The notes beneath the pieces were generated by a model. That model was given only the letters and a program-made list of their open reading frames with translations, ran no database searches and was not told where the DNA came from. Both the position numbers and the translations under genes were made by a program. A stretch of DNA of 47,250 nucleotides from Cyanobacteria bacterium auto_48_18 (GTDB taxonomy: Bacteria; Cyanobacteriota; Vampirovibrionia; Obscuribacterales; Obscuribacteraceae), in the NCBI GenBank assembly GCA_036170915.1, contig JAVHQC010000027.1, positions 1 through 47,250 of the forward strand. Reading direction: 5' to 3'. Within the stretch, counting starts at the first letter, position 1. Each line of letters opens with the position of its first letter. This document shows positions 38,317 through 47,250 of this stretch, piece by piece.

Positions 38317-39072
38317 TTAGCGGTTTCGAATTCGATCTAAAAAATTAGTGCAGAGGGCAATTATCTGCTTAAACTCGACATTGTCAAAAGCATGGTCGGC
38401 TTTCGGAAAGATGTGCTCTTCAAATTTAGTACCGGTGCGCTCAAGCACCGCTACAAGCGATTTTTCTCGACTGACGGGCACCACTTTGTCGAGTTTACCG
38501 TGCAGTATCAGTACTGGTGGCATCTTCTCTATTTTTGCCGTGGGCAAAACAAAACATCCGGCCATATCAATTACCGATGCCACCCGGCCATCGCTGGCGG
38601 CGGTATGCAAAGCCAATTGAGCGCCCAGGCTGTGACCGAGTAGGCAAATGTTTTTACTATCGACAAGAGGCAGACTGGCGGCATAATCGATGGAGGCGTC
38701 TACAGTTTTGAGCCAGAGTTTGAAATTTTGGGCCATCTCGGCACTACTGGCAGTGGTCATACCAGTTTGATCAAAATAGTGCACCACCATCACATGGCTG
38801 CCGCTTTTGCATAAGTGTGACGCCAGATCGGAAAAGAATTCGCCCAGACCACCAGAACCATAAAGAATAATAATAAGCGGTTTTTTTTGTGAACGATCTT
38901 CGGCGTAATACCAGTCAGAGGTAATTGTTTTGCCTTTGCAAACAAAAGTTGTCTGCGACATTTTTACTTTAGGGCGCGTTGCTGCAGTGTCGGCAGCAGT
39001 TGCACTCGGTAACATTAATAGAGCCAAGCAAGCTGCACTCAATAAAGTTTGAATTTTAGATGCCGAATTCAA
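38317..39072 (-). CDS. Secreted alpha/beta hydrolase (dienelactone hydrolase-like)
   Basis: Signal peptide; GHSLG nucleophile elbow; LHGKLDKVVP; ADHAF. Confidence 0.88.
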   Translation of the reverse strand: MNSASKIQTLLSAACLALLMLPSATAADTAATRPKVKMSQTTFVCKGKTITSDWYYAEDRSQKKPLIIILYGSGGLGEFFSDLASHLCKSGSHVMVVHYFDQTGMTTASSAEMAQNFKLWLKTVDASIDYAASLPLVDSKNICLLGHSLGAQLALHTAASDGRVASVIDMAGCFVLPTAKIEKMPPVLILHGKLDKVVPVSREKSLVAVLERTGTKFEEHIFPKADHAFDNVEFKQIIALCTNFLDRIRNR

Positions 39073-39078
39073 AGCAAA

Positions 39079-39705
39079 TTATTCCGATAACAGGCTTTCG
39101 CCACTGAGAGCGCCGGTAGCATAATCAAGATCTTCGATGGTTTGCGCTAGCTGCGAGGCAGCAGATTTAAGCGGCGAATAAGCCTTAGTAAATTTGCGGC
39201 TACGCAATTGCTCTAGTGCCATACGCATCTGACCGAGTGCCTCTTCGGTTTTCTCCACAGCAGCCGAGACGGCGTCTTGCACCAGATCAATTTTGTGTGT
39301 TTCGTCTTTCGAACGACAGTTCTGACAATAACCGAGAATATCAAAGCGGCTGGTGGTGTGGTCAAAACCTTTGCGCTGAGCCACTGTTTTGCCAAAACCA
39401 CGAATCAGTTCGTCGTAAAACTCAATTGTCATTCCGCATCCGAGACAAATGAGATGGTCGTGAGCAGGACCTTCTTCTACAGCTTCATAACGCAGGCCGC
39501 GATCACCGCTTACGGTGATTACATTGCCGTGGGCTTTAAGGCGATTTAGAGTGCGATAAATTGTTGAAAGACTGACTTTTAAGCCGCGCTCCAGCGCCAG
39601 CTCGTAAACTTCGGGTGCGGTTAAATGGTCGCCCCGAGGAATAGCTTTGACTATCTCTTCAATTGCTTCCTGAGTGGAAAGCATTTTAGTTTTACTCTCT
39701 TCCAT
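39079..39705 (-). CDS. Fur-family transcriptional regulator with C-terminal helical extension
   Basis: HLTAPEVY, SLSTIYRTL, HDHLICLGCG, GYCQNC; 208 aa. Confidence 0.93.
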   Translation of the reverse strand: MEESKTKMLSTQEAIEEIVKAIPRGDHLTAPEVYELALERGLKVSLSTIYRTLNRLKAHGNVITVSGDRGLRYEAVEEGPAHDHLICLGCGMTIEFYDELIRGFGKTVAQRKGFDHTTSRFDILGYCQNCRSKDETHKIDLVQDAVSAAVEKTEEALGQMRMALEQLRSRKFTKAYSPLKSAASQLAQTIEDLDYATGALSGESLLSE

Positions 39706-39914
39706 AGATATATATTCGCCGATTTGACGGCGCTCTGATCACACGCTGTCCAAATTCTTCATCAGCACCTAATTGTTGCTTTGCATCTGTACTATTGCGA
39801 ATTAACGCAATACCCGGTCACCAAAATATGATGCTCTGCAATCAGCAAACCCCTGGAGAACCTGCCTTTTGCTCATGACAGCCGGTTATGGGATTTTCTT
39901 TAGATTAGTGTTGG

Positions 39915-39943
39915 TTGACAGTGATTATTGAGAGTGTTAGCGT
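39915..39943 (+). promoter_or_regulatory. sigma70 promoter of the Tad operon
   Basis: TTGACA (39915-39920), 17 bp, TAGCGT (39938-39943), with extended -10 TG at 39935-39936. Confidence 0.7.
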
Positions 39944-39973
39944 GAGTCTCAGTTGCTAATGAGAATCAATTGC
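39943..39973. promoter_or_regulatory. Fur-box-like operator (tandem)
   Basis: GCTAATGAGAATCAATTGC (39955-39973) matches GATAATGATAATCATTATC at 14/19 by eye; related TGAGTCTCAGTTGC 17 bp upstream. Confidence 0.7.
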
Positions 39974-40134
39974 AAAAAGCTTTCGAGGTTTTTAGCTCTT
40001 TTAGCGACTACGTGTCACCTTTTTTTGCATGCATTTGCATGAAGCTGACCGATGTTTGAGAAATATTCGTTTGAGCACTCGTGTGCTGCAATCAATCCTT
40101 AGCTATTCAGCACTTTTGAAAATATGGAGATTCG

Positions 40135-40365
40135 ATGATTACTAGAAAAACAATTAACCGCAGCAAGCGCGGTCAGAGCATGGTTGAGTACGCCCTGGGC
40201 ATCGGCTGCGTAGCAGCTCTTTGTGTAGTGGCTCTGGGCTCATTAGGCCATATCACTGGCGATATGATCTGGAACGTTGAACAAGCCACCAACTACGGCG
40301 GTACAAAATCAAGCGAACCTGGTCGCACAATCAAGGCCACAGCTACGCCCTGGGTAGTGCAATAG
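40135..40365 (+). CDS. flp: Flp-type prepilin
   Basis: Basic leader KRG|QSMVEY (E+5, Y+6), hydrophobic helix, first gene of the operon, GGAG RBS. Confidence 0.85.
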   Translation: MITRKTINRSKRGQSMVEYALGIGCVAALCVVALGSLGHITGDMIWNVEQATNYGGTKSSEPGRTIKATATPWVVQ

Positions 40366-40378
40366 AGTTGCAGGAAGG

Positions 40379-40412
40379 CGAAGAGTGTTTGCTTAACTGC
40401 AAGCACTCTTCG
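40379..40412 (+). promoter_or_regulatory. Strong intercistronic hairpin after flp
   Basis: CGAAGAGTGTTTGC-TTAACT-GCAAGCACTCTTCG, 14-bp stem with one G-U and no U-tract. Confidence 0.7.
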
Positions 40413-40443
40413 AATTCATTTAACAGGCTGGTGACCATTGTCT

Positions 40444-41037
40444 ATGGCTTCTTCTTCGAAACAAAAGCAGCAAAAAAGCGGGTCGCGTAAGCGGCATGGG
40501 CAATCGATGGTCGAATTTGCTTTTGCCATTCCATTTTTGCTTTTGATTATTGTCACAATAATGTATTTTGGAAGAGTGTTTTATATCAAGCAAACAGTAG
40601 CCATGGCCTGTCAAGAAGGCGCTCGAATAGCCAGCCGCACTCCTGATTTGAGCGACGTACAGGTTCGGGCGAGCGTAACTGGATTTACCGCATCTGGTGA
40701 TTCAGTAAATTCCACTTCAGTAGTAGCCCAACAACTTGGGTCAGCCAGGCTCTTATCGCAAGGATCAACTGGCAGTTTGCCGCCCGGGGCGAAGGTCAAA
40801 GTACTACCGTTCGATTCTGATGGTACGGCAGATGACGAAATTGCTCCAGGAACCGTTGCCGTAAGAATTGAATATCCTTTTGTTTTCACCGGTAATGCCT
40901 TCACAGGTGGTGCTAGTAATTTCGGCAATTCTTTCGGTGTTTATACCGGTGTAGGCGGCTCGCCAATCTCGTTTCTTGATTTTCCAATATCAGAAAGAGC
41001 TGTGGCTCTGACTGAGGTTTATCAAAAGATTCAATAG
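40444..41037 (+). CDS. tadE: TadE-like pseudopilin
   Basis: RHG|QSMVEFAFAIPFLLLII...ACQEGARIAS (alternative TTG start 40438). Confidence 0.9.
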   Translation: MASSSKQKQQKSGSRKRHGQSMVEFAFAIPFLLLIIVTIMYFGRVFYIKQTVAMACQEGARIASRTPDLSDVQVRASVTGFTASGDSVNSTSVVAQQLGSARLLSQGSTGSLPPGAKVKVLPFDSDGTADDEIAPGTVAVRIEYPFVFTGNAFTGGASNFGNSFGVYTGVGGSPISFLDFPISERAVALTEVYQKIQ

Positions 41038-41067
41038 CACTGTTTAAGGCAACAATTTGAGGTTTTC

Positions 41068-42099
41068 ATGCGGTCGTCCAACGTTATCAATTCAGAATCG
41101 TCAGTGCAATCTCTGCTAGGCAGAGATCGCACGTCAGTGCCACCTAAAAAGGTTAGCGCCATGGTGCCGGTGCTAGTAGGGCTAGTGCTGGTGTTGGTCG
41201 GCCTGGCATTGTTTCGTATGATGGCGCCCCAGCAGACGGCTGCTAAGACCGTGCAGATTGTGGGTGCCGGACAAGACATTTTTCCGGGGTCACGTATAAC
41301 TTTTCATGATTTACACTACATCACCATCCCTGAGAGCTATTACTCTGAAGGGATGAGTTCAAAAACCAATTTGCTAGTTGGTCGCATCGCTCGCAATTTT
41401 ATTGGCAAAGGTGAGCCGGTCCAGGAGAGCTATTTGTTCAGTGGTCGAGACAATCTGGCTCAGAAAGTTGAAAACCATGAACGGGCCGTTACTCTCAAGT
41501 TAGACGACTATGCTCTTGTTGACCACACCATCAGTAGTGGCGACCAGGTAGATGTTCTCGTCACCACAACTCTAGACGGTAAGAAATTTACCAAAACCGT
41601 CTGCCAAAGTGTCAAAGTGCTTTTCAGCATGCCGCGTGAAGCTTTGCACAGCAGCTCGCTTCGAGGTCAAGAAGCTAACCATATCACTCTTGTGGTCAGC
41701 CCTGGTCAAGCCGAATTGCTTGCTCAAGCTGAAGAAACTGGCAAAATCAAACTTTCATTGCGCAATCGACTGGCAACAGGCCAGCCTTTTCTCAGCGGAG
41801 TTTCAGAATCTGATCTCCTGCCTGATCGAGCCAAAGAGTTGAGCGCGGCTAGATTTAGCGCCAACGCCAAAGTGCCAGCCACGACTGCTACTTCTACTAC
41901 TATACCGGCACCACCGCAGATGGTGCCAACTTTTGCTGGTTTTGCCGGCTTACCCATGCCGCCCATTTTTGCAAATAATACTAACAGTGCTGCCGGTATT
42001 GACGTGATGGCTCCAGTGACTCGTACGGCTAGATGGGTTGTAGAGATATTTTCAGGCAACAAGCGAGAACTTTATGAAGTGCCAGAAGTCAGCAAATAA
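41068..42099 (+). CDS. cpaB: Flp pilus assembly protein CpaB/RcpC
   Basis: TM helix, SAF domain, RAVTL, GDQVDVLV, ITLVVSP, GKIKLSLRN. Confidence 0.9.
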   Translation: MRSSNVINSESSVQSLLGRDRTSVPPKKVSAMVPVLVGLVLVLVGLALFRMMAPQQTAAKTVQIVGAGQDIFPGSRITFHDLHYITIPESYYSEGMSSKTNLLVGRIARNFIGKGEPVQESYLFSGRDNLAQKVENHERAVTLKLDDYALVDHTISSGDQVDVLVTTTLDGKKFTKTVCQSVKVLFSMPREALHSSSLRGQEANHITLVVSPGQAELLAQAEETGKIKLSLRNRLATGQPFLSGVSESDLLPDRAKELSAARFSANAKVPATTATSTTIPAPPQMVPTFAGFAGLPMPPIFANNTNSAAGIDVMAPVTRTARWVVEIFSGNKRELYEVPEVSK

Positions 42100-43459
42100 A
42101 GTTAGATCAAGGCGCTCAGCTGGTGCCGTCTTGCCTTTTGTCGCTTTTATTATCGTCTTGGGTATCGCATTTGTTGCCTTTTGTGTTGATGTCATGCGCA
42201 CGGCATATGCTTCTTCTGCGGTGCGCTATGCAGCCGAAGCCGCCGCACTCGGTGCCTTTTCATCCACACTTAGCACTCCTGCTCAAAGCTATAGTCGCGA
42301 TCAGGCTGAAAGTAATATTCGCCAGGCTATTTTTCAAGCATCAGGCTCAAGCGGGCCTGCCTGGAATACCGCTCCATATGGTCCAAACTCCGCACTGAGC
42401 GGTAGGGCCGCCGCAGAGAGCGCCGTGCACTTCGAAGATGCGGATATCACCTTTTTAGACAATCCTAATACTGCCGATAGTGGCGATTACTTTTTGCAAT
42501 TGCGTGGCCGTCGCGACAACGCAGACTCACTTAAGCTCTTCTTTCTGCCTTTAATTTATGCCTTTAATGGCGCTGGAATTGGTTCGGTTGCTACTGTTCC
42601 GACAGAGATGACATTTGCTAGCCCGCAGCGCCTGGTAGAAATTATTGCTCAACCGGCTTCGCGCATCGGCGCCGGTGTTCCGCGCACCGCTGGTTCGGCT
42701 ATGCGCGATCAAGACTTGATTGGTTTTGCTACCTTGCCCATCGCCTTGAGCAATAAACAATTTGCCGCTTTGGCAAACTCGGCTAACTCTGCGTTGCCCG
42801 CTTACAATTTACTCTTGAGCCCCACCAGTAGTATTCCTGCTGGCACCATTAGCGGTGCACTGGTAAATTTGACCCCTTCGCCTTCAACCCTGGCTTATTA
42901 CAATCAAGCATCAAGCAGTTTGAACGTCAATCAGTTGGTTGCAAATCTGGCTTACTTTGCGCCGGGGCCCACTAATAACGAGATTCCTTCTGCCATGGTT
43001 GAACGGGGTAGTCTGATTTCAAATTTCAATCTCAATTCCAATCTTTTTACTTCTGCTACCGTGCAGCAGCAGCTTGTCAATCAGCTGCGACAATTGTCGA
43101 TCGGTCGCTCATATATCTTTCCTGTTGTGGCAGAAAATCCGACTTTTGCAACTGGTGAAGTCAGCAAAGTTGTGGGCTTTGCCCGCTTGCGCTTGCTGGG
43201 CTCGCCTACCGTTTTCAGCCAGGGCAACTTTAACCTCAGCGTGGCTCTGGAACCAGATTCTGTGGCAGTGCGCAATGCCAGCTTTGCCAATGCCCGAGCG
43301 GCTATTCCTGCTGCTACCAGCGCTATGATGCCTGCGCCGATTGCACCTTTTACCGCTCGCATTAAAATTGGAGAGGGCATGAGCGTAAGACCACGTTCGA
43401 TAGTTATGGCGCCATCTCTATCTCCACGCACTACATCTTCAAGTTCTATGGTGAATTAA
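42074..43459 (+). CDS. TadG-like large pseudopilin/tip protein
   Basis: RRSAG|AVLPFVAF hydrophobic helix, VDV, AAEAAALGA; C-terminal VVGFA motif; operon context. Confidence 0.75.
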   Translation: MKCQKSANKVRSRRSAGAVLPFVAFIIVLGIAFVAFCVDVMRTAYASSAVRYAAEAAALGAFSSTLSTPAQSYSRDQAESNIRQAIFQASGSSGPAWNTAPYGPNSALSGRAAAESAVHFEDADITFLDNPNTADSGDYFLQLRGRRDNADSLKLFFLPLIYAFNGAGIGSVATVPTEMTFASPQRLVEIIAQPASRIGAGVPRTAGSAMRDQDLIGFATLPIALSNKQFAALANSANSALPAYNLLLSPTSSIPAGTISGALVNLTPSPSTLAYYNQASSSLNVNQLVANLAYFAPGPTNNEIPSAMVERGSLISNFNLNSNLFTSATVQQQLVNQLRQLSIGRSYIFPVVAENPTFATGEVSKVVGFARLRLLGSPTVFSQGNFNLSVALEPDSVAVRNASFANARAAIPAATSAMMPAPIAPFTARIKIGEGMSVRPRSIVMAPSLSPRTTSSSSMVN

Positions 43460-44293
43460 ATGAATGCCGTTACTCTCTTTAAAAAGAACGTTTCGCAAGA
43501 AGCAAAAGCATTGAATTCTGGCAGTGAAAAATTTAGCCGTGTAATTGGCGTACTTGGAGCTAAAGGCGGTGTTGGTGCCACGACTGTCACTATCAATCTT
43601 GCCGCTCACCTGGCCTTGCATTACCCAGGCAACGTCGCAGTATTTGACGCTAATTTACAGCAACCGGACGCCGCATGCCTTTTAAATTGCCTGCCGCGCT
43701 ATTCGCTACTTGATTTGGCACGGCTTTCAGCTCTTGATGGTGCAATCATTGCGGCATGCGCCGAACATGTTTCTCTAGACAACAATGTGAGCAACGGTAA
43801 GCATTTCAGCTTGTACAGTCCTCCGATGGAAGCCAGCCTGGCCTTACAATTTCCGTCAGGTGATCTGCACAGGTTGCTTACCGAAATGAAAAAGCAGAGC
43901 GGCACTGTGGTGGTGGATTTGCCCCGCACAGTCAGCCGTGAACTAATTACAATGCTTGATTTATGCGACAACATCATTTTGGTGCTGGAGCCTACGGTCA
44001 CAGCTCTGGCCGCTGCTAAACGCTGGTTTGAGGTTTTTAGCGACCTTGAGCTTAAATCTGATCAGGTTTTCACTGTTCTCAACCGCACAGGCGGCAAACT
44101 CAAAGAAATTGAAAGGCAATTGTCTGCCGAGCTCGGAGGCTTTCCGTTGTTGCGCCTGCCCAACGCTTATGAGGCCTGCGAAAGTGCTGCTATTGAAGGT
44201 ATTCCAGTTGTGGTCAAAGAGCCTCGCCATGGCTTCAGCAAAGCTATAAATGAACTATCTCGAACATGCCTGTTGGCTGTAGGAGAAGTATAA
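43460..44293 (+). CDS. cpaE: CpaE/TadZ-like MinD/ParA ATPase
   Basis: Deviant Walker A GAKGGVGATT, NLA, VVDLP, VLNR; no obvious receiver domain. Confidence 0.85.
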   Translation: MNAVTLFKKNVSQEAKALNSGSEKFSRVIGVLGAKGGVGATTVTINLAAHLALHYPGNVAVFDANLQQPDAACLLNCLPRYSLLDLARLSALDGAIIAACAEHVSLDNNVSNGKHFSLYSPPMEASLALQFPSGDLHRLLTEMKKQSGTVVVDLPRTVSRELITMLDLCDNIILVLEPTVTALAAAKRWFEVFSDLELKSDQVFTVLNRTGGKLKEIERQLSAELGGFPLLRLPNAYEACESAAIEGIPVVVKEPRHGFSKAINELSRTCLLAVGEV

Positions 44294-44294
44294 A

Positions 44295-45851
44295 GTGTCG
44301 AAATTACGCCAATTGCTATTCAACGACAATACGGCAGCAACGCCGCATAAACCAGTTGCTGTTGCTATTTCTGCGCTTCCAGACAATTTGTCGACAGGTG
44401 ATGAAGAAGAAAGAAAAGCAAAACAAGAAAGAAAAGTTGGTTTATCACTCAGCCGCCGAAATCCAAAAATTTCGGCAGATCAAGCCAAGAGTGATCATGA
44501 GTCAAACCTCTATCATGATTTGAAATCAAAAATTCACGAACGTTTAATTGAAACTATTGACGTTAGTGTTTTAACACAGCTAAATGGCAACGATGCTTTA
44601 GAAGAAGCAATCGAAGCCACTATTCGCCATCTTATTGCAGAAGAACGGCTGCCACTTTCGATTTCTGAGCGTGACAACTTGGCTCAAGAAGTGCTTTACG
44701 AAACACTCGGCCTTGGGCCGTTAGAGCCACTTCTGTCTGATCCTCTGGTCAATGATATTCTCGTTAACGGGTCACAAAGTGTATGGATTGATAGAGACGG
44801 CAAACTGATGGAGACCGCCATTCGTTTTAAAGATGACCACCACTTATTGCATATTATCAATCGCATTGTTGCCAGAATTGGCAGGCGCATCGACGAATCG
44901 TCACCGATTGTTGATGCCAGATTACCTGATGGATCAAGGGTGAATGCCATTATTCCTCCATTGGCATTAGACGGACCGGTGCTTTCGATAAGAAGGTTTA
45001 GACCAGTTCCTTTTGCTTTTGAAGATTTAATTGGCCGCGCTGCACTGACGCAAAACATGGCAGACTTCTTGACCCAGGCGGTCAAAGCCCGACTGAATAT
45101 TCTAATTTCAGGCGGCACTTCCGCCGGTAAAACTACTTTATTAAACGTCTTATCGTCTTACATCGGCAATCACGAACGCATTGTCACCATCGAAGATACT
45201 GCTGAATTGCGATTGCAGCAAAGGCATGTTATACGCCTGGAATCGCGGCCCGCTAATACCGAAGGTAGTGGCGCCGTCGGCCAGCGCGAATTGGTTAAAA
45301 ATGCGTTGCGAATGCGTCCAGATCGCATTGTGGTTGGCGAAGTGCGCGGTCCTGAAGCCCTGGATATGTTGCAAGCAATGAATACTGGCCACGAGGGATC
45401 GTTGACCACGGTGCACTCCAATAGTAGTCGAGACGCTCTAAGTAGAATTGAAACCCTGGTGCTTTTATCTGGCGTAGATTTATCTCAACGTAGCATTCGC
45501 GAACAAATAGGCTCAGCCTTTGACCTGGTTGTGCAGGTGAAGCGGCTTTCTGACGGCACCCGGCGAGTTGTAAGTATTACTGAAATTTTGGGTGTGCAAG
45601 AAGGCGTGGTCAGCATGCAAGATCTCTTTGAGTTTCGCCAGATAGGCACCGGCCATGATGGCAATTCGCTTGGTTTTCATAGCGCTTGTGGTATCAGGCC
45701 GCTTAAATCAGAACGGTTTGTCGAACACGGTTTGCCCCTTCCTTCTGCCTGGTTCGAAGTCGAAGACGAACAGCAGTTTCAACTTGAATATGATCAGGCG
45801 AAAGAGGCTGAGAATGCCCGCGTGCCGGTTCTCAGAGGGGTGCCGCAATGA
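44295..45851 (+). CDS. tadA: Tad secretion ATPase CpaF/TadA
   Basis: GLGPLEPLL, DARLPDGSRVNA, GGTSAGKTT, IEDTAEL, LRMRPDRIVVGEVRG, MNTGH. Confidence 0.97.
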   Translation: MSKLRQLLFNDNTAATPHKPVAVAISALPDNLSTGDEEERKAKQERKVGLSLSRRNPKISADQAKSDHESNLYHDLKSKIHERLIETIDVSVLTQLNGNDALEEAIEATIRHLIAEERLPLSISERDNLAQEVLYETLGLGPLEPLLSDPLVNDILVNGSQSVWIDRDGKLMETAIRFKDDHHLLHIINRIVARIGRRIDESSPIVDARLPDGSRVNAIIPPLALDGPVLSIRRFRPVPFAFEDLIGRAALTQNMADFLTQAVKARLNILISGGTSAGKTTLLNVLSSYIGNHERIVTIEDTAELRLQQRHVIRLESRPANTEGSGAVGQRELVKNALRMRPDRIVVGEVRGPEALDMLQAMNTGHEGSLTTVHSNSSRDALSRIETLVLLSGVDLSQRSIREQIGSAFDLVVQVKRLSDGTRRVVSITEILGVQEGVVSMQDLFEFRQIGTGHDGNSLGFHSACGIRPLKSERFVEHGLPLPSAWFEVEDEQQFQLEYDQAKEAENARVPVLRGVPQ

Positions 45852-46807
45852 CTCCCATAAATCTATTATCTATATTGGTTTTTGTTATTCTGACGGGCAT
45901 TCTGGCTGTAAGAGTAATTAAAATTGCCAAGCGAAAAAAATTTATTGCTCTTCGTGTTAGTCAAGCTCTGGGCCCTGCAGTCGAGCAAACAGCAAAACTC
46001 GAAGCTGGCACCAATGCAGAAGCACGTCCAACTTTCCAATTTAATTTTGCCGGCATTGTGCCGAAACCGCAATGGTTGGTGCGCGTAGTGGAACGATCGG
46101 CGGTAGAAATTTCGCTGGCCGATTTATGGCTGGTGTCGCTAAGCTGCGCCCTTATACCGGCGTTGGGCGCTTACATCGTTGGTCTGCCTGAACTTTTTTC
46201 AATGGCTCTGGCTGTTTTATTTCTGTTTTTGCCCATTACCTGCTTAATTGTGATTGGCAGGAGGAGGCGCGGACGCTTCATCGATCAATTGCCTGATGCT
46301 ATTGATTTGATGGTTTCTGTTTTGCGCAGTGGGCATAGTGTGGCCCAGGCAGTGCGTTCGGTGGGCAAAGAATCGGCTGTTCCGTTAGGGCAGGAATTTT
46401 CTCACGTGCTGCAACGGATCAACCTGGGGCAGCCCTTTAGCGAAGCTCTAAACAATACGGTGACAAAATATAACTCAGAAGAACTTGATCTAATTCGCCG
46501 GGCGATTACCATTCAGGCGGAAGTAGGTGGCAGTTTAGCCGAGCTTTTAGACAAGACTAATTTAACACTACGCCAGCGTTTGAAGTTGAAGCGCCAGGTG
46601 CGCGTTTTGACCAGCCAGAGTCGCTTGACCGGCATTATTGTTGGACTTCTGCCGATAGTACTGGCAACTGCTCTTGAATTTCTAAGCCCCGGCTATCTTG
46701 ACCCTCTATTTTCGAACGAATTGGGTCGCATGTTGTTGGCACTGGCGGTGGTGCTAGAAATTATTGGAGTTGTGCTGATAACTAAAATGGCCGAGGTGAA
46801 AGTTTAA
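45848..46807 (+). CDS. tadB: Tad inner-membrane protein TadB
   Basis: QLPDAIDLMVSVLRSGHS, IQAEVGGSLAELL; T2SS-F domain. Confidence 0.93.
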   Translation: MTPINLLSILVFVILTGILAVRVIKIAKRKKFIALRVSQALGPAVEQTAKLEAGTNAEARPTFQFNFAGIVPKPQWLVRVVERSAVEISLADLWLVSLSCALIPALGAYIVGLPELFSMALAVLFLFLPITCLIVIGRRRRGRFIDQLPDAIDLMVSVLRSGHSVAQAVRSVGKESAVPLGQEFSHVLQRINLGQPFSEALNNTVTKYNSEELDLIRRAITIQAEVGGSLAELLDKTNLTLRQRLKLKRQVRVLTSQSRLTGIIVGLLPIVLATALEFLSPGYLDPLFSNELGRMLLALAVVLEIIGVVLITKMAEVKV

Positions 46808-47250
46808 ATGGCTTCTGCTCAATTTCTCACCAGTTATCCAGAACTGATTGCCGCATTGTTCCTATCTCTAGTTCTTGCTTTCAAGCTTATCTTTCGAAGC
46901 GGCGCCAGTGCCAATAGTGCAGGCTCCGTTTTCAGTTTGCCTTACATTATTGTAGAGCCGGCCAGTTACGTGATGAGAATGTTTCCTGGCAGTTATTTAT
47001 CTTGGCTGCAAGAGCGTTTGACTTACGCCGGTCTGCGCAACAATACATATTATGGAACTGTCTGTGCGGCCAAATTTTATCCATTGCTACTGGGCTCGCT
47101 TTTGTTTCTTGTGGTTCACCCGGGCTTTGCTCTTGTCGGTTCACTAGTGTTGTTTTTTGTCGCTGATATTATCCTGGCAATTTTTGCCAAACGCAGGCAG
47201 CGGGCTTTGGCTGATAATTTGCCTCAAGTAATCGACTTGATGGTTTTGTG
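46808..47250 (+). CDS. tadC: Tad inner-membrane protein TadC, 3'-truncated (not in ORF track)
   Basis: Manual translation MASAQFLTSYPEL...RLTYAGLR...KRRQRALADNLPQVIDLMVL, open to the window end. Confidence 0.88.
   Translation, partial: MASAQFLTSYPELIAALFLSLVLAFKLIFRSGASANSAGSVFSLPYIIVEPASYVMRMFPGSYLSWLQERLTYAGLRNNTYYGTVCAAKFYPLLLGSLLFLVVHPGFALVGSLVLFFVADIILAIFAKRRQRALADNLPQVIDLMVL

What the first reader, a model, noticed from the sequence alone, without database searches (positions are those of the whole stretch)
39079..47250. Candidate metal-responsive Tad/Flp pilus module: divergent Fur gene, Fur-boxed promoter, Tad operon
Seen: a Fur-family gene diverges from a flp-tadE-cpaB-tadG-cpaE-tadA-tadB-tadC operon. 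The operon promoter (TTGACA-17-TAGCGT, extended -10) is followed at about +5 by a 14/19 match to the classical Fur box. Known: Fur-family proteins repress by binding over promoters, and Tad pili act in adhesion and, in some predators, prey contact. Inference: a locally encoded Fur paralog switches this pilus on under iron or other metal limitation, for example for attachment to minerals, hosts or prey. I do not know of a described dedicated fur-tad cassette, but cannot exclude one.
Basis: partly seen in the sequence, partly recalled or inferred. Interest (0 to 1): 0.82.

Follow-up and report, generated by a model that had tools for sequence, protein, structure and literature searches.

The report
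Iron-switch promoter on a Tad pilus
Across an order of non-photosynthetic relatives of cyanobacteria, the promoter of an adhesion-pilus operon carries the same conserved DNA box as the iron-starvation gene flavodoxin, so the pilus is likely made when iron runs short, probably under the cell's main iron repressor rather than the Fur gene next door.

Summary
The genes, promoter and 14/19 box are as described. The 14/19 match alone is weak (236 such sites in this genome). The box is nevertheless real. A 7-1-7 palindrome just after the -10 is kept at 30 of 30 flp-tad promoters examined in Obscuribacterales. The same box, in similar geometry, precedes flavodoxin (15 of 15 loci), a textbook iron-Fur target. 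A distinct Zur-type motif exists elsewhere, so zinc is unlikely.

The 'dedicated cassette' idea fails in its strict form. fur and flp are divergent neighbours in 32 of 59 genomes having both. The box persists at 16 of 16 promoters without an adjacent fur, including genomes where no orthologue was found. Best reading: Tad belongs to a small iron regulon, likely repressed by the housekeeping FurA-like protein (fur-feoA). The adjacent long Fur, which has a C-terminal helical hairpin, may be a co-regulator.

Iron-induced Tad is known in Vibrio vulnificus. I found no description for this lineage, and my look-ups found no earlier scan note on this promoter. Binding and expression are untested.

The parts
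39079..39705 (-). Long Fur-family paralog (208 aa): Fur fold to about residue 133 plus a C-terminal two-helix hairpin (135-168, 172-201)
   Evidence: Pfam; alignment of 110 sequences (H27, E74, H82, D83, H84, E95, C87, C90, C127 invariant); model (helices pLDDT 87-98, pTM 0.42); Foldseek
39793..39812 (.). Second, one-base-shorter (7-0-7) Fur-type palindrome about 90-107 nt upstream of fur; candidate control site for fur
   Evidence: score 15.1; score >=11 in 17 of 37 fur-homologue upstream regions; background >=10 in 1.4% of 3194 upstream regions
39915..39943 (+). Sigma-70-type promoter TTGACA-17-TAGCGT with extended -10 TG
   Evidence: TTGAC lies 40-43 nt before the box in 28 of 30 flp loci; conservation
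39955..39977 (.). Fur-type operator, 7-1-7 core TGAGAAT-C-AATTGCA at 39960-39974 (family consensus TG[AC]GAAT-n-ATTC[GT]CA)
   Evidence: score 20.1, rank 4 in the genome with a matrix built from flavodoxin promoters of other genomes
40135..40365 (+). Flp-type major pilin candidate
   Evidence: homologues in 68 of 107 order genomes; no Pfam hit
40379..40412 (+). 14-bp stem-loop after flp (likely mRNA stabiliser or partial terminator favouring pilin excess)
   Evidence: role inferred
40438..41037 (+). TadE-like minor pilin
   Evidence: PF07811
41068..42099 (+). CpaB/RcpC
   Evidence: PF16976, TIGR03177
42074..43459 (+). TadG-like pseudopilin
   Evidence: weak PF13400
43460..44293 (+). CpaE/TadZ-like MinD-family ATPase
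44295..45851 (+). TadA/CpaF ATPase
   Evidence: PF00437; TIGR03819 E 3e-103
45848..46807 (+). TadB
   Evidence: PF00482
46808..47250 (+). TadC, cut by the contig end
   Evidence: full orthologue PF00482

Best explanation
The tad operon carries an order-wide conserved Fur-type operator over its transcription start, shared with the flavodoxin gene, and is likely repressed by iron-loaded housekeeping Fur (the FurA-like gene of the fur-feoA locus), so that pili would be built when iron is scarce. Shown: the operator, its position, its conservation, its sharing with flavodoxin and its independence from the adjacent fur. Inferred: the binder and the metal. Mechanism: Fe(II)-Fur sits at about +5 to +25 and blocks RNA polymerase; iron loss frees the promoter and flp-tadE-cpaB-tadG-cpaE-tadA-tadB-tadC is transcribed, with the hairpin after flp giving excess pilin. 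The adjacent long Fur is an inherited neighbour with its own weaker site and is at most a co-regulator.
For: Box score >=16.2 at 30 of 30 flp loci fetched (the 30 best of 68 genomes with a flp hit): 14 with adjacent fur, 16 without, the latter from 6 genera. Background: 11 of 3183 upstream regions. Same motif before long-chain flavodoxin (TIGR01752 above cut-off) in 15 of 15 loci, score 13-22, mostly just after a TTGCA/TATGCT promoter, plus three more genomes. In G019 a genome-wide pattern had only two hits, tad and flavodoxin. Anabaena FurA has top-scoring sites at flavodoxin isiB and the consensus AAATAAATTCTCAATAAAT (PMC4005646, passages), sharing the TTCTCAATA half-site. G000 and G016 both keep the box and share only the fur-feoA clade and the Zur-like clade. 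The Zur-like clade has a different motif, TG(A/G)AAA(C/T)-n-(A/G)TTT(C/T)CA. The fur-feoA protein is 44-66% identical to the main Fur of other classes of the phylum; the window Fur is 28-37%. A second Tad locus in G000 has no box (best 4.8).
Against: No binding or expression data. feoB lacks a strong box in 6 of 6 genomes (0.1-9.7), and the fur-feoA gene has no 7-1-7 box in 8 of 8 (best 5.1), unusual for a classical iron regulon. Genome-wide hit counts are no higher than with permuted matrices (7 versus 0-17 at score >=17). The flavodoxin training sites were picked with a pattern informed by the tad box, so the cross-test is not fully independent. Direct identity to the Anabaena consensus is only 12/19. 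13 of the 16 non-adjacent genomes still encode a long-Fur homologue elsewhere, and the three without are 79-94% complete. The window Fur has the same SLSTIYRTL recognition helix as the main Fur of other classes of the phylum and could bind the same box. Calling the fur-feoA protein 'FurA' rests on identity and recall, not on a named reference.
Confidence: 0.6

Rival explanations
1. The long Fur paralog (adjacent, or acting in trans after rearrangement) is the main binder and runs a small regulon of tad, flavodoxin and a PLP-enzyme operon. This is a relaxed form of the first reader's idea.
For: Divergent adjacency in 32 of 59 genomes across two families; at least two 'non-adjacent' cases look like contig breaks (G024; G072). 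Metal ligands are invariant in 110 sequences. The recognition helix is FurA-like. feoB and fur-feoA lack the box. Homologues at E<=1e-30 occur in 84 of 107 order genomes.
Against: The box is kept in G016, G116 and G110, where no homologue was found at that cut-off. In G016 the GT2-flp gap is contiguous and empty, and none of its five Fur genes falls in the clade. The gene stays with the glycosyltransferase block when tad leaves.
Confidence: 0.22
2. The box is read by a Fur-family sensor of another signal (Mn, Zn, Ni or peroxide).
For: Boxes also precede CooC/MinD-like ATPase genes and PLP-enzyme operons, and one di-haem peroxidase gene. The variant in the second family reads TGCAAGT-n-AATTGCA. 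feoB is unboxed.
Against: Flavodoxin is the most constant co-target. A separate Zur-type motif exists. G000 has no member of the PerR/Irr-like clade among its five Fur genes yet keeps the box (genome 86% complete). Both candidate binders have Glu, not Asp, at the position linked to peroxide sensing (alignment; PMC11672702 passage).
Confidence: 0.12
3. The match is a chance AT-rich sequence or a promoter element, not an operator.
For: 236 sites of >=14/19 in the genome; no genome-wide excess over permuted matrices.
Against: 30 of 30 loci keep it at fixed distance from TTGAC while flanks diverge. A combined promoter-plus-box pattern hits 63 of 107 order genomes, while the reversed control gives only scattered single hits.
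Confidence: 0.04

Closest known systems
Vibrio vulnificus tad1/flp-1 induction by iron limitation (PMC6748444, passages; PMC7137831, passages)
   Same: A Tad/Flp operon tied to low iron; flp-1 rose about 131-fold with dipyridyl; tad genes up in iron deficiency.
   Different: The passages show no direct Fur box (the word Fur does not occur in PMC6748444). That is one of three loci in a pathogen; here an operator is conserved across a whole uncultured order.
Cyanobacterial FurA regulon (Anabaena PCC 7120, PMC4005646; Synechocystis, PMC8634477; passages)
   Same: Palindromic box with a central base and TTCTCAATA-type half-site; flavodoxin as a target.
   Different: No word starting with 'pil' occurs in either main text; supplements not seen. 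Here the box often carries CGCA/TGCA half-sites and feoB is not boxed.
Fur-repressed type IV pilus genes and iron-acquiring pilins (PMC13170364 passages; Synechocystis PilA1, PMC4144903 abstract)
   Same: [quoted passage not shown]
   Different: Those are type IVa systems; this is a Tad (type IVc) operon without secretin, TadD or prepilin peptidase in the operon.
Fe-sensing Fur proteins with a Cys4 site (E. coli 8J6W, C. jejuni 4ETS, F. tularensis 5NBC)
   Same: Fold, CxxC pairs and regulatory-site His/Glu ligands.
   Different: Lacks three site-3 ligands (A81, R102, S119) and has a ~70-residue C-terminal helical hairpin with no significant Pfam family.

Membership tests
Fur family (PF01475) | HMM score above curated cut-off and Fur fold | tested here: met
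   73.1 bits versus cut-off 23.1; Foldseek top hits are all Fur/Zur
Fe-sensing Fur equivalog | NCBIfam equivalog cut-off | tested here: not met
   Best 61.9 versus 146; the fur-feoA paralog also misses, so the models do not cover this lineage
Fe-sensing Fur | Regulatory-site ligands (E. coli H33, E81, H88, H90, E101; site assignment recalled) and Cys4 site | tested here: met
   H27, E74, H82, H84, E95, C87, C90, C127 in 110 of 110; C130 in 109
Fe-sensing Fur | Site 3 ligands (not present in all Furs, PMC11672702) | tested here: not met
   A81 (never His), R102, S119
Fe-sensing Fur | Iron-dependent DNA binding and repression | not testable with these tools
   needs EMSA or reporter
Zur | Groups with the Zur-like clade, has the hinge Cys and uses the Zur-type motif | tested here: not met
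   separate clade; no Cys between the DNA-binding domain and the HDH motif; different motif
PerR | Asp in place of Glu at the beta-2 ligand | tested here: not met
   E95 invariant; position inferred from alignment; criterion from PMC11672702
Tad/Flp (type IVc) pilus locus | TadA ATPase, TadB/TadC platform, CpaB, TadZ/CpaE, TadE/G pseudopilins | tested here: met
Tad/Flp (type IVc) pilus locus | Flp pilin family hit | tested here: inconclusive
   no Pfam hit at E<=0.1; motif, size and position fit
Tad/Flp (type IVc) pilus locus | RcpA secretin, TadD, TadV in the locus | tested here: not met
   tadC is followed by a GntR gene or unrelated genes in relatives; three secretin genes lie elsewhere in G000, not assigned
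Dedicated fur-tad cassette (proposed) | Box and fur gene are lost or moved together | tested here: not met
   box at 16 of 16 promoters without adjacent fur
Iron-Fur regulon member | Operator overlapping the promoter, shared with a hallmark iron-starvation gene | tested here: met
   flavodoxin 15 of 15; feoB not shared

The most novel reading that the evidence does not exclude
In Obscuribacterales the Tad pilus is the main iron-starvation organelle. It would be used to reach iron on minerals or on other cells in a lineage where no TonB-dependent receptor was found in 24 of 41 genomes searched (0 of 5 in this genus). It is governed by a two-tier circuit: FurA on the 7-1-7 box, and a lineage-specific long Fur with a helical hairpin that reads a 7-0-7 site and, in some genera, sits beside a boxed promoter for an undescribed small RNA.
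Probability: 0.25. Interest if true: 0.72.

Novelty: new variant of a known kind. Interest (0 to 1): 0.48.

Why it matters
Obscuribacterales are known mainly from metagenomes (recalled), and what their Tad pili do is unknown. A conserved operator shared with flavodoxin gives a first environmental cue, iron shortage, for a surface machine in this lineage. It also defines a usable Fur box for the order, separate from its Zur box, and makes the idea testable by heterologous reporters and by metatranscriptomes. It argues that gene adjacency was a misleading guide to the regulator. Low-iron pili are known elsewhere, so the principle is not new.

Tried and rejected
The classical 19-bp score was rejected as evidence (236 sites). 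The first matrix included three wrongly picked sites and was rebuilt. Genome-wide enrichment over permuted matrices was not seen. The C8:70271 hit was first counted as a target, then reassigned to the Zur-type motif. 'Window Fur is sister to FurA' appeared in one midpoint-rooted tree but not in a second; its placement is unresolved. The ~900-aa boxed genes were suspected to be siderophore synthetases but are PALP fusions. ZnuA was not found in 4 of 4 genomes, so a znu promoter could not serve as a control. No RNA holder was listed. Rfam gave nothing at gathering level for the candidate small RNAs or the window locus. Tad-like loci in four genomes of other orders showed no flp or fur hit and no box above 12.7; they may not be orthologous. 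PMC4451040 and PMC8545098 (passages) held nothing on Tad regulation. No complex prediction was run.
Full report
Setting. The window is contig C27 of G000 (4.94 Mb, 86% complete). Record titles of the closest relatives name Candidatus Obscuribacter and Obscuribacterales, non-photosynthetic Cyanobacteriota.

Observation. All genes are where stated: fur on the minus strand, then flp, tadE, cpaB, tadG, cpaE, tadA, tadB and a cut tadC. The pilin has no Pfam hit and tadG only a weak one. TTGACA-17-TG-n-TAGCGT and the 14/19 box are in the sequence. The promoter scanner missed the promoter because the -10 has 3 of 6 matches. A 14/19 match is common: 236 sites in the genome, both strands, repeats included.

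The box is conserved. In aligned intergenic regions, TTGAC and the box stand out against diverged flanks. Against five other genera, identity is 0.87 for the -35, 0.74 for the box and 0.27 for the rest. The consensus is a 7-1-7 palindrome, TG[AC]GAAT-n-ATTC[GT]CA. Of 107 order genomes, 68 had a flp hit, and loci were fetched for the best 30. All 30 carry a box scoring at least 16.2, and 28 have TTGAC 40-43 nt before it. Only 11 of 3183 upstream regions in G000 reach 16. Thirteen of the 30 besides G000 are one genus, so they are not independent. A promoter-plus-box pattern hit 63 of 107 genomes, with only scattered hits for the reversed control; not all of those hits are at tad.

The box does not depend on the neighbouring fur. 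Homologues of the window Fur (E<=1e-30, including a distant 33-42% subclade) occur in 84 of 107 genomes. Of 59 genomes with both genes, 32 have them divergent within 2 kb and 27 do not; 9 more have flp but no homologue. At least two of the 27 look like contig breaks. Among the 30 loci, 16 lack an adjacent fur, from six genera, and all 16 keep the box. In G016 and G019 the glycosyltransferase gene runs straight up to the flp promoter with no fur between. G016 has five Fur-family genes, none in the window clade (89% complete). Conversely, where tad has gone the fur usually stays beside the glycosyltransferase block (G004). The adjacency occurs in both families and is probably ancestral, but it is broken repeatedly.

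What else carries the box. A matrix built from tad boxes of other genomes found its top G000 sites upstream of a long-chain flavodoxin, with three sites. One lies just after TTGCAT-17-TATGCT, the same layout as at tad. All 15 flavodoxin loci returned have such sites (scores 13.0-22.2). A strict pattern found three more boxed flavodoxins. In G019 the only two genome-wide hits were tad and flavodoxin. With a matrix from flavodoxin promoters of other genomes, the window box ranks fourth in G000; those sites were picked with a pattern informed by the tad box. Other boxed genes are a PLP-enzyme operon containing another Fur paralog, CooC/MinD-like ATPases and a tandem-HTH Fur. The second Tad locus of G000 has no box. 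Against the iron reading: feoB has at most a weak site (6 of 6 genomes below 10), the fur-feoA gene has no 7-1-7 site (8 of 8), and total hit counts do not exceed those of permuted matrices.

Which regulator. G000 has five Fur-family genes. The C16 gene precedes feoA, is at least 79% identical across its 120 best listed homologues, and is 44-66% identical to the main Fur of other classes in the phylum, against 28-37% for the window Fur. I call it FurA-like from that and from recall. G000 and G016 both keep the box and share only this clade and the Zur-like clade. A different motif, TG(A/G)AAA(C/T)-n-(A/G)TTT(C/T)CA, stands before Zur-clade genes in 3 of 8 loci inspected, before a His-rich gene and before the PLP operon. 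An earlier scan note prompted that check. Parsimony therefore points to FurA and iron. Published Anabaena FurA sites include flavodoxin and share the TTCTCAATA half-site (PMC4005646, passages), though direct identity is only 12/19.

The adjacent Fur. It keeps the Cys4 site and the His/Glu regulatory ligands in 110 aligned sequences and lacks site-3 ligands. It has Glu rather than PerR's Asp and no Zur hinge Cys (criteria partly from PMC11672702 passages, partly recalled). The model adds a confident two-helix hairpin at residues 135-201. Its recognition helix equals that of the main Fur in other classes of the phylum, so co-binding is plausible. A one-base-shorter palindrome lies upstream of it (39793-39812) and scores at least 11 in 17 of 37 homologue loci. 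Similar sites also remain upstream of some tad promoters without fur (5 of 15 at 10 or more), so its owner is unclear.

Mechanism. Shown: a conserved operator over the start site, shared with flavodoxin and independent of gene adjacency. Inferred: Fe(II)-FurA blocks transcription, and iron loss derepresses pilin and assembly genes. Secretin and peptidase must come from elsewhere (three secretins in G000). The purpose is open: adhesion under nutrient stress, or access to iron on surfaces or cells. No TonB-dependent receptor was found in 24 of 41 order genomes, 0 of 5 in this genus; long queries can miss weak matches.

Known context. V. vulnificus flp-1 rises about 131-fold under iron limitation (PMC6748444, passages; that paper's introduction also says iron-rich). 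Fur-repressed type IV pilus genes are cited in PMC13170364 (passages). Synechocystis PilA1 aids growth on iron oxides (PMC4144903, abstract). Ten searches (listings, with passages read for nine papers at most) showed no fur-tad cassette and no Fur regulon for this lineage. The library lacks most subscription papers, and no supplements were read, where regulon tables could list pilus genes. Scan look-ups by relatives and by words returned nothing on this promoter.

Verdict. A real, order-wide, probably iron-responsive Tad operon, not a dedicated cassette. New variant of a known kind; interest 0.48.

Noticed in passing
L208, L209, L210, L213, L222, L225, L264, L266, L269-L272 (promoter diverging from the long fur in G088-G093, G051, G052, G073, G076, G086, G087): Where tad has left, a TTGAC-plus-box promoter still points away from fur and is followed by about 110-200 nt without a convincing ORF, ending in a terminator-like hairpin; one genus shares AGAAATAGGGACAGATTT. 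Candidate Fur-repressed small RNA or a leader of the GntR gene; no Rfam family in the five of these loci scanned.
   Followed up: partly
G000 C8:96040-96603 and C5:1-2403 (contiguous in G003, L129): Fur paralog with a duplicated N-terminal HTH, related to the window Fur, behind a 129-aa unknown gene and diverging from a CooC/MinD-like ATPase, with several boxes in between.
   Followed up: partly
G000 C33:197744-211498 (L084): Twelve-gene PLP-enzyme operon with an internal Zur-like gene, behind both the iron-type box (C33:211746) and a Zur-type site.
   Followed up: partly
L273, L277-L280: Boxed promoters drive ~900-aa fusions with a C-terminal PALP domain, four of five also hitting a Cys/Met PLP domain; in at least two loci a decarboxylase-like gene follows.
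   Followed up: partly
G000 C8:69688-70032 (L078): His/Cys-rich 114-aa protein with no Pfam hit behind two Zur-type palindromes.
   Followed up: partly
G000 C22:99358-106426 (L086): Second, unboxed Tad locus (pilin-like gene, cpaB, cpaE, tadA, tadB, tadC).
   Followed up: partly
L052:6100-7100 (G020); also G078, G094-G097: Tandem flp copies; in G020 each has its own TTGAC promoter and box, the first with the 7-0-7 spacing.
   Followed up: no
L055 (G023) and L070 (G015): tadA, and tadE or tadB, appear frameshifted or split, possibly sequencing errors.
   Followed up: no
window 38317-39072(-): Dienelactone-hydrolase-like gene with a predicted N-terminal signal, 6 nt downstream of fur; seen only in this genome and its two closest relatives among the loci inspected.
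   Followed up: no
window 39928-39940: A half-box TATTGAGA lies inside the promoter spacer in this genus, possibly a second overlapping site.
   Followed up: no
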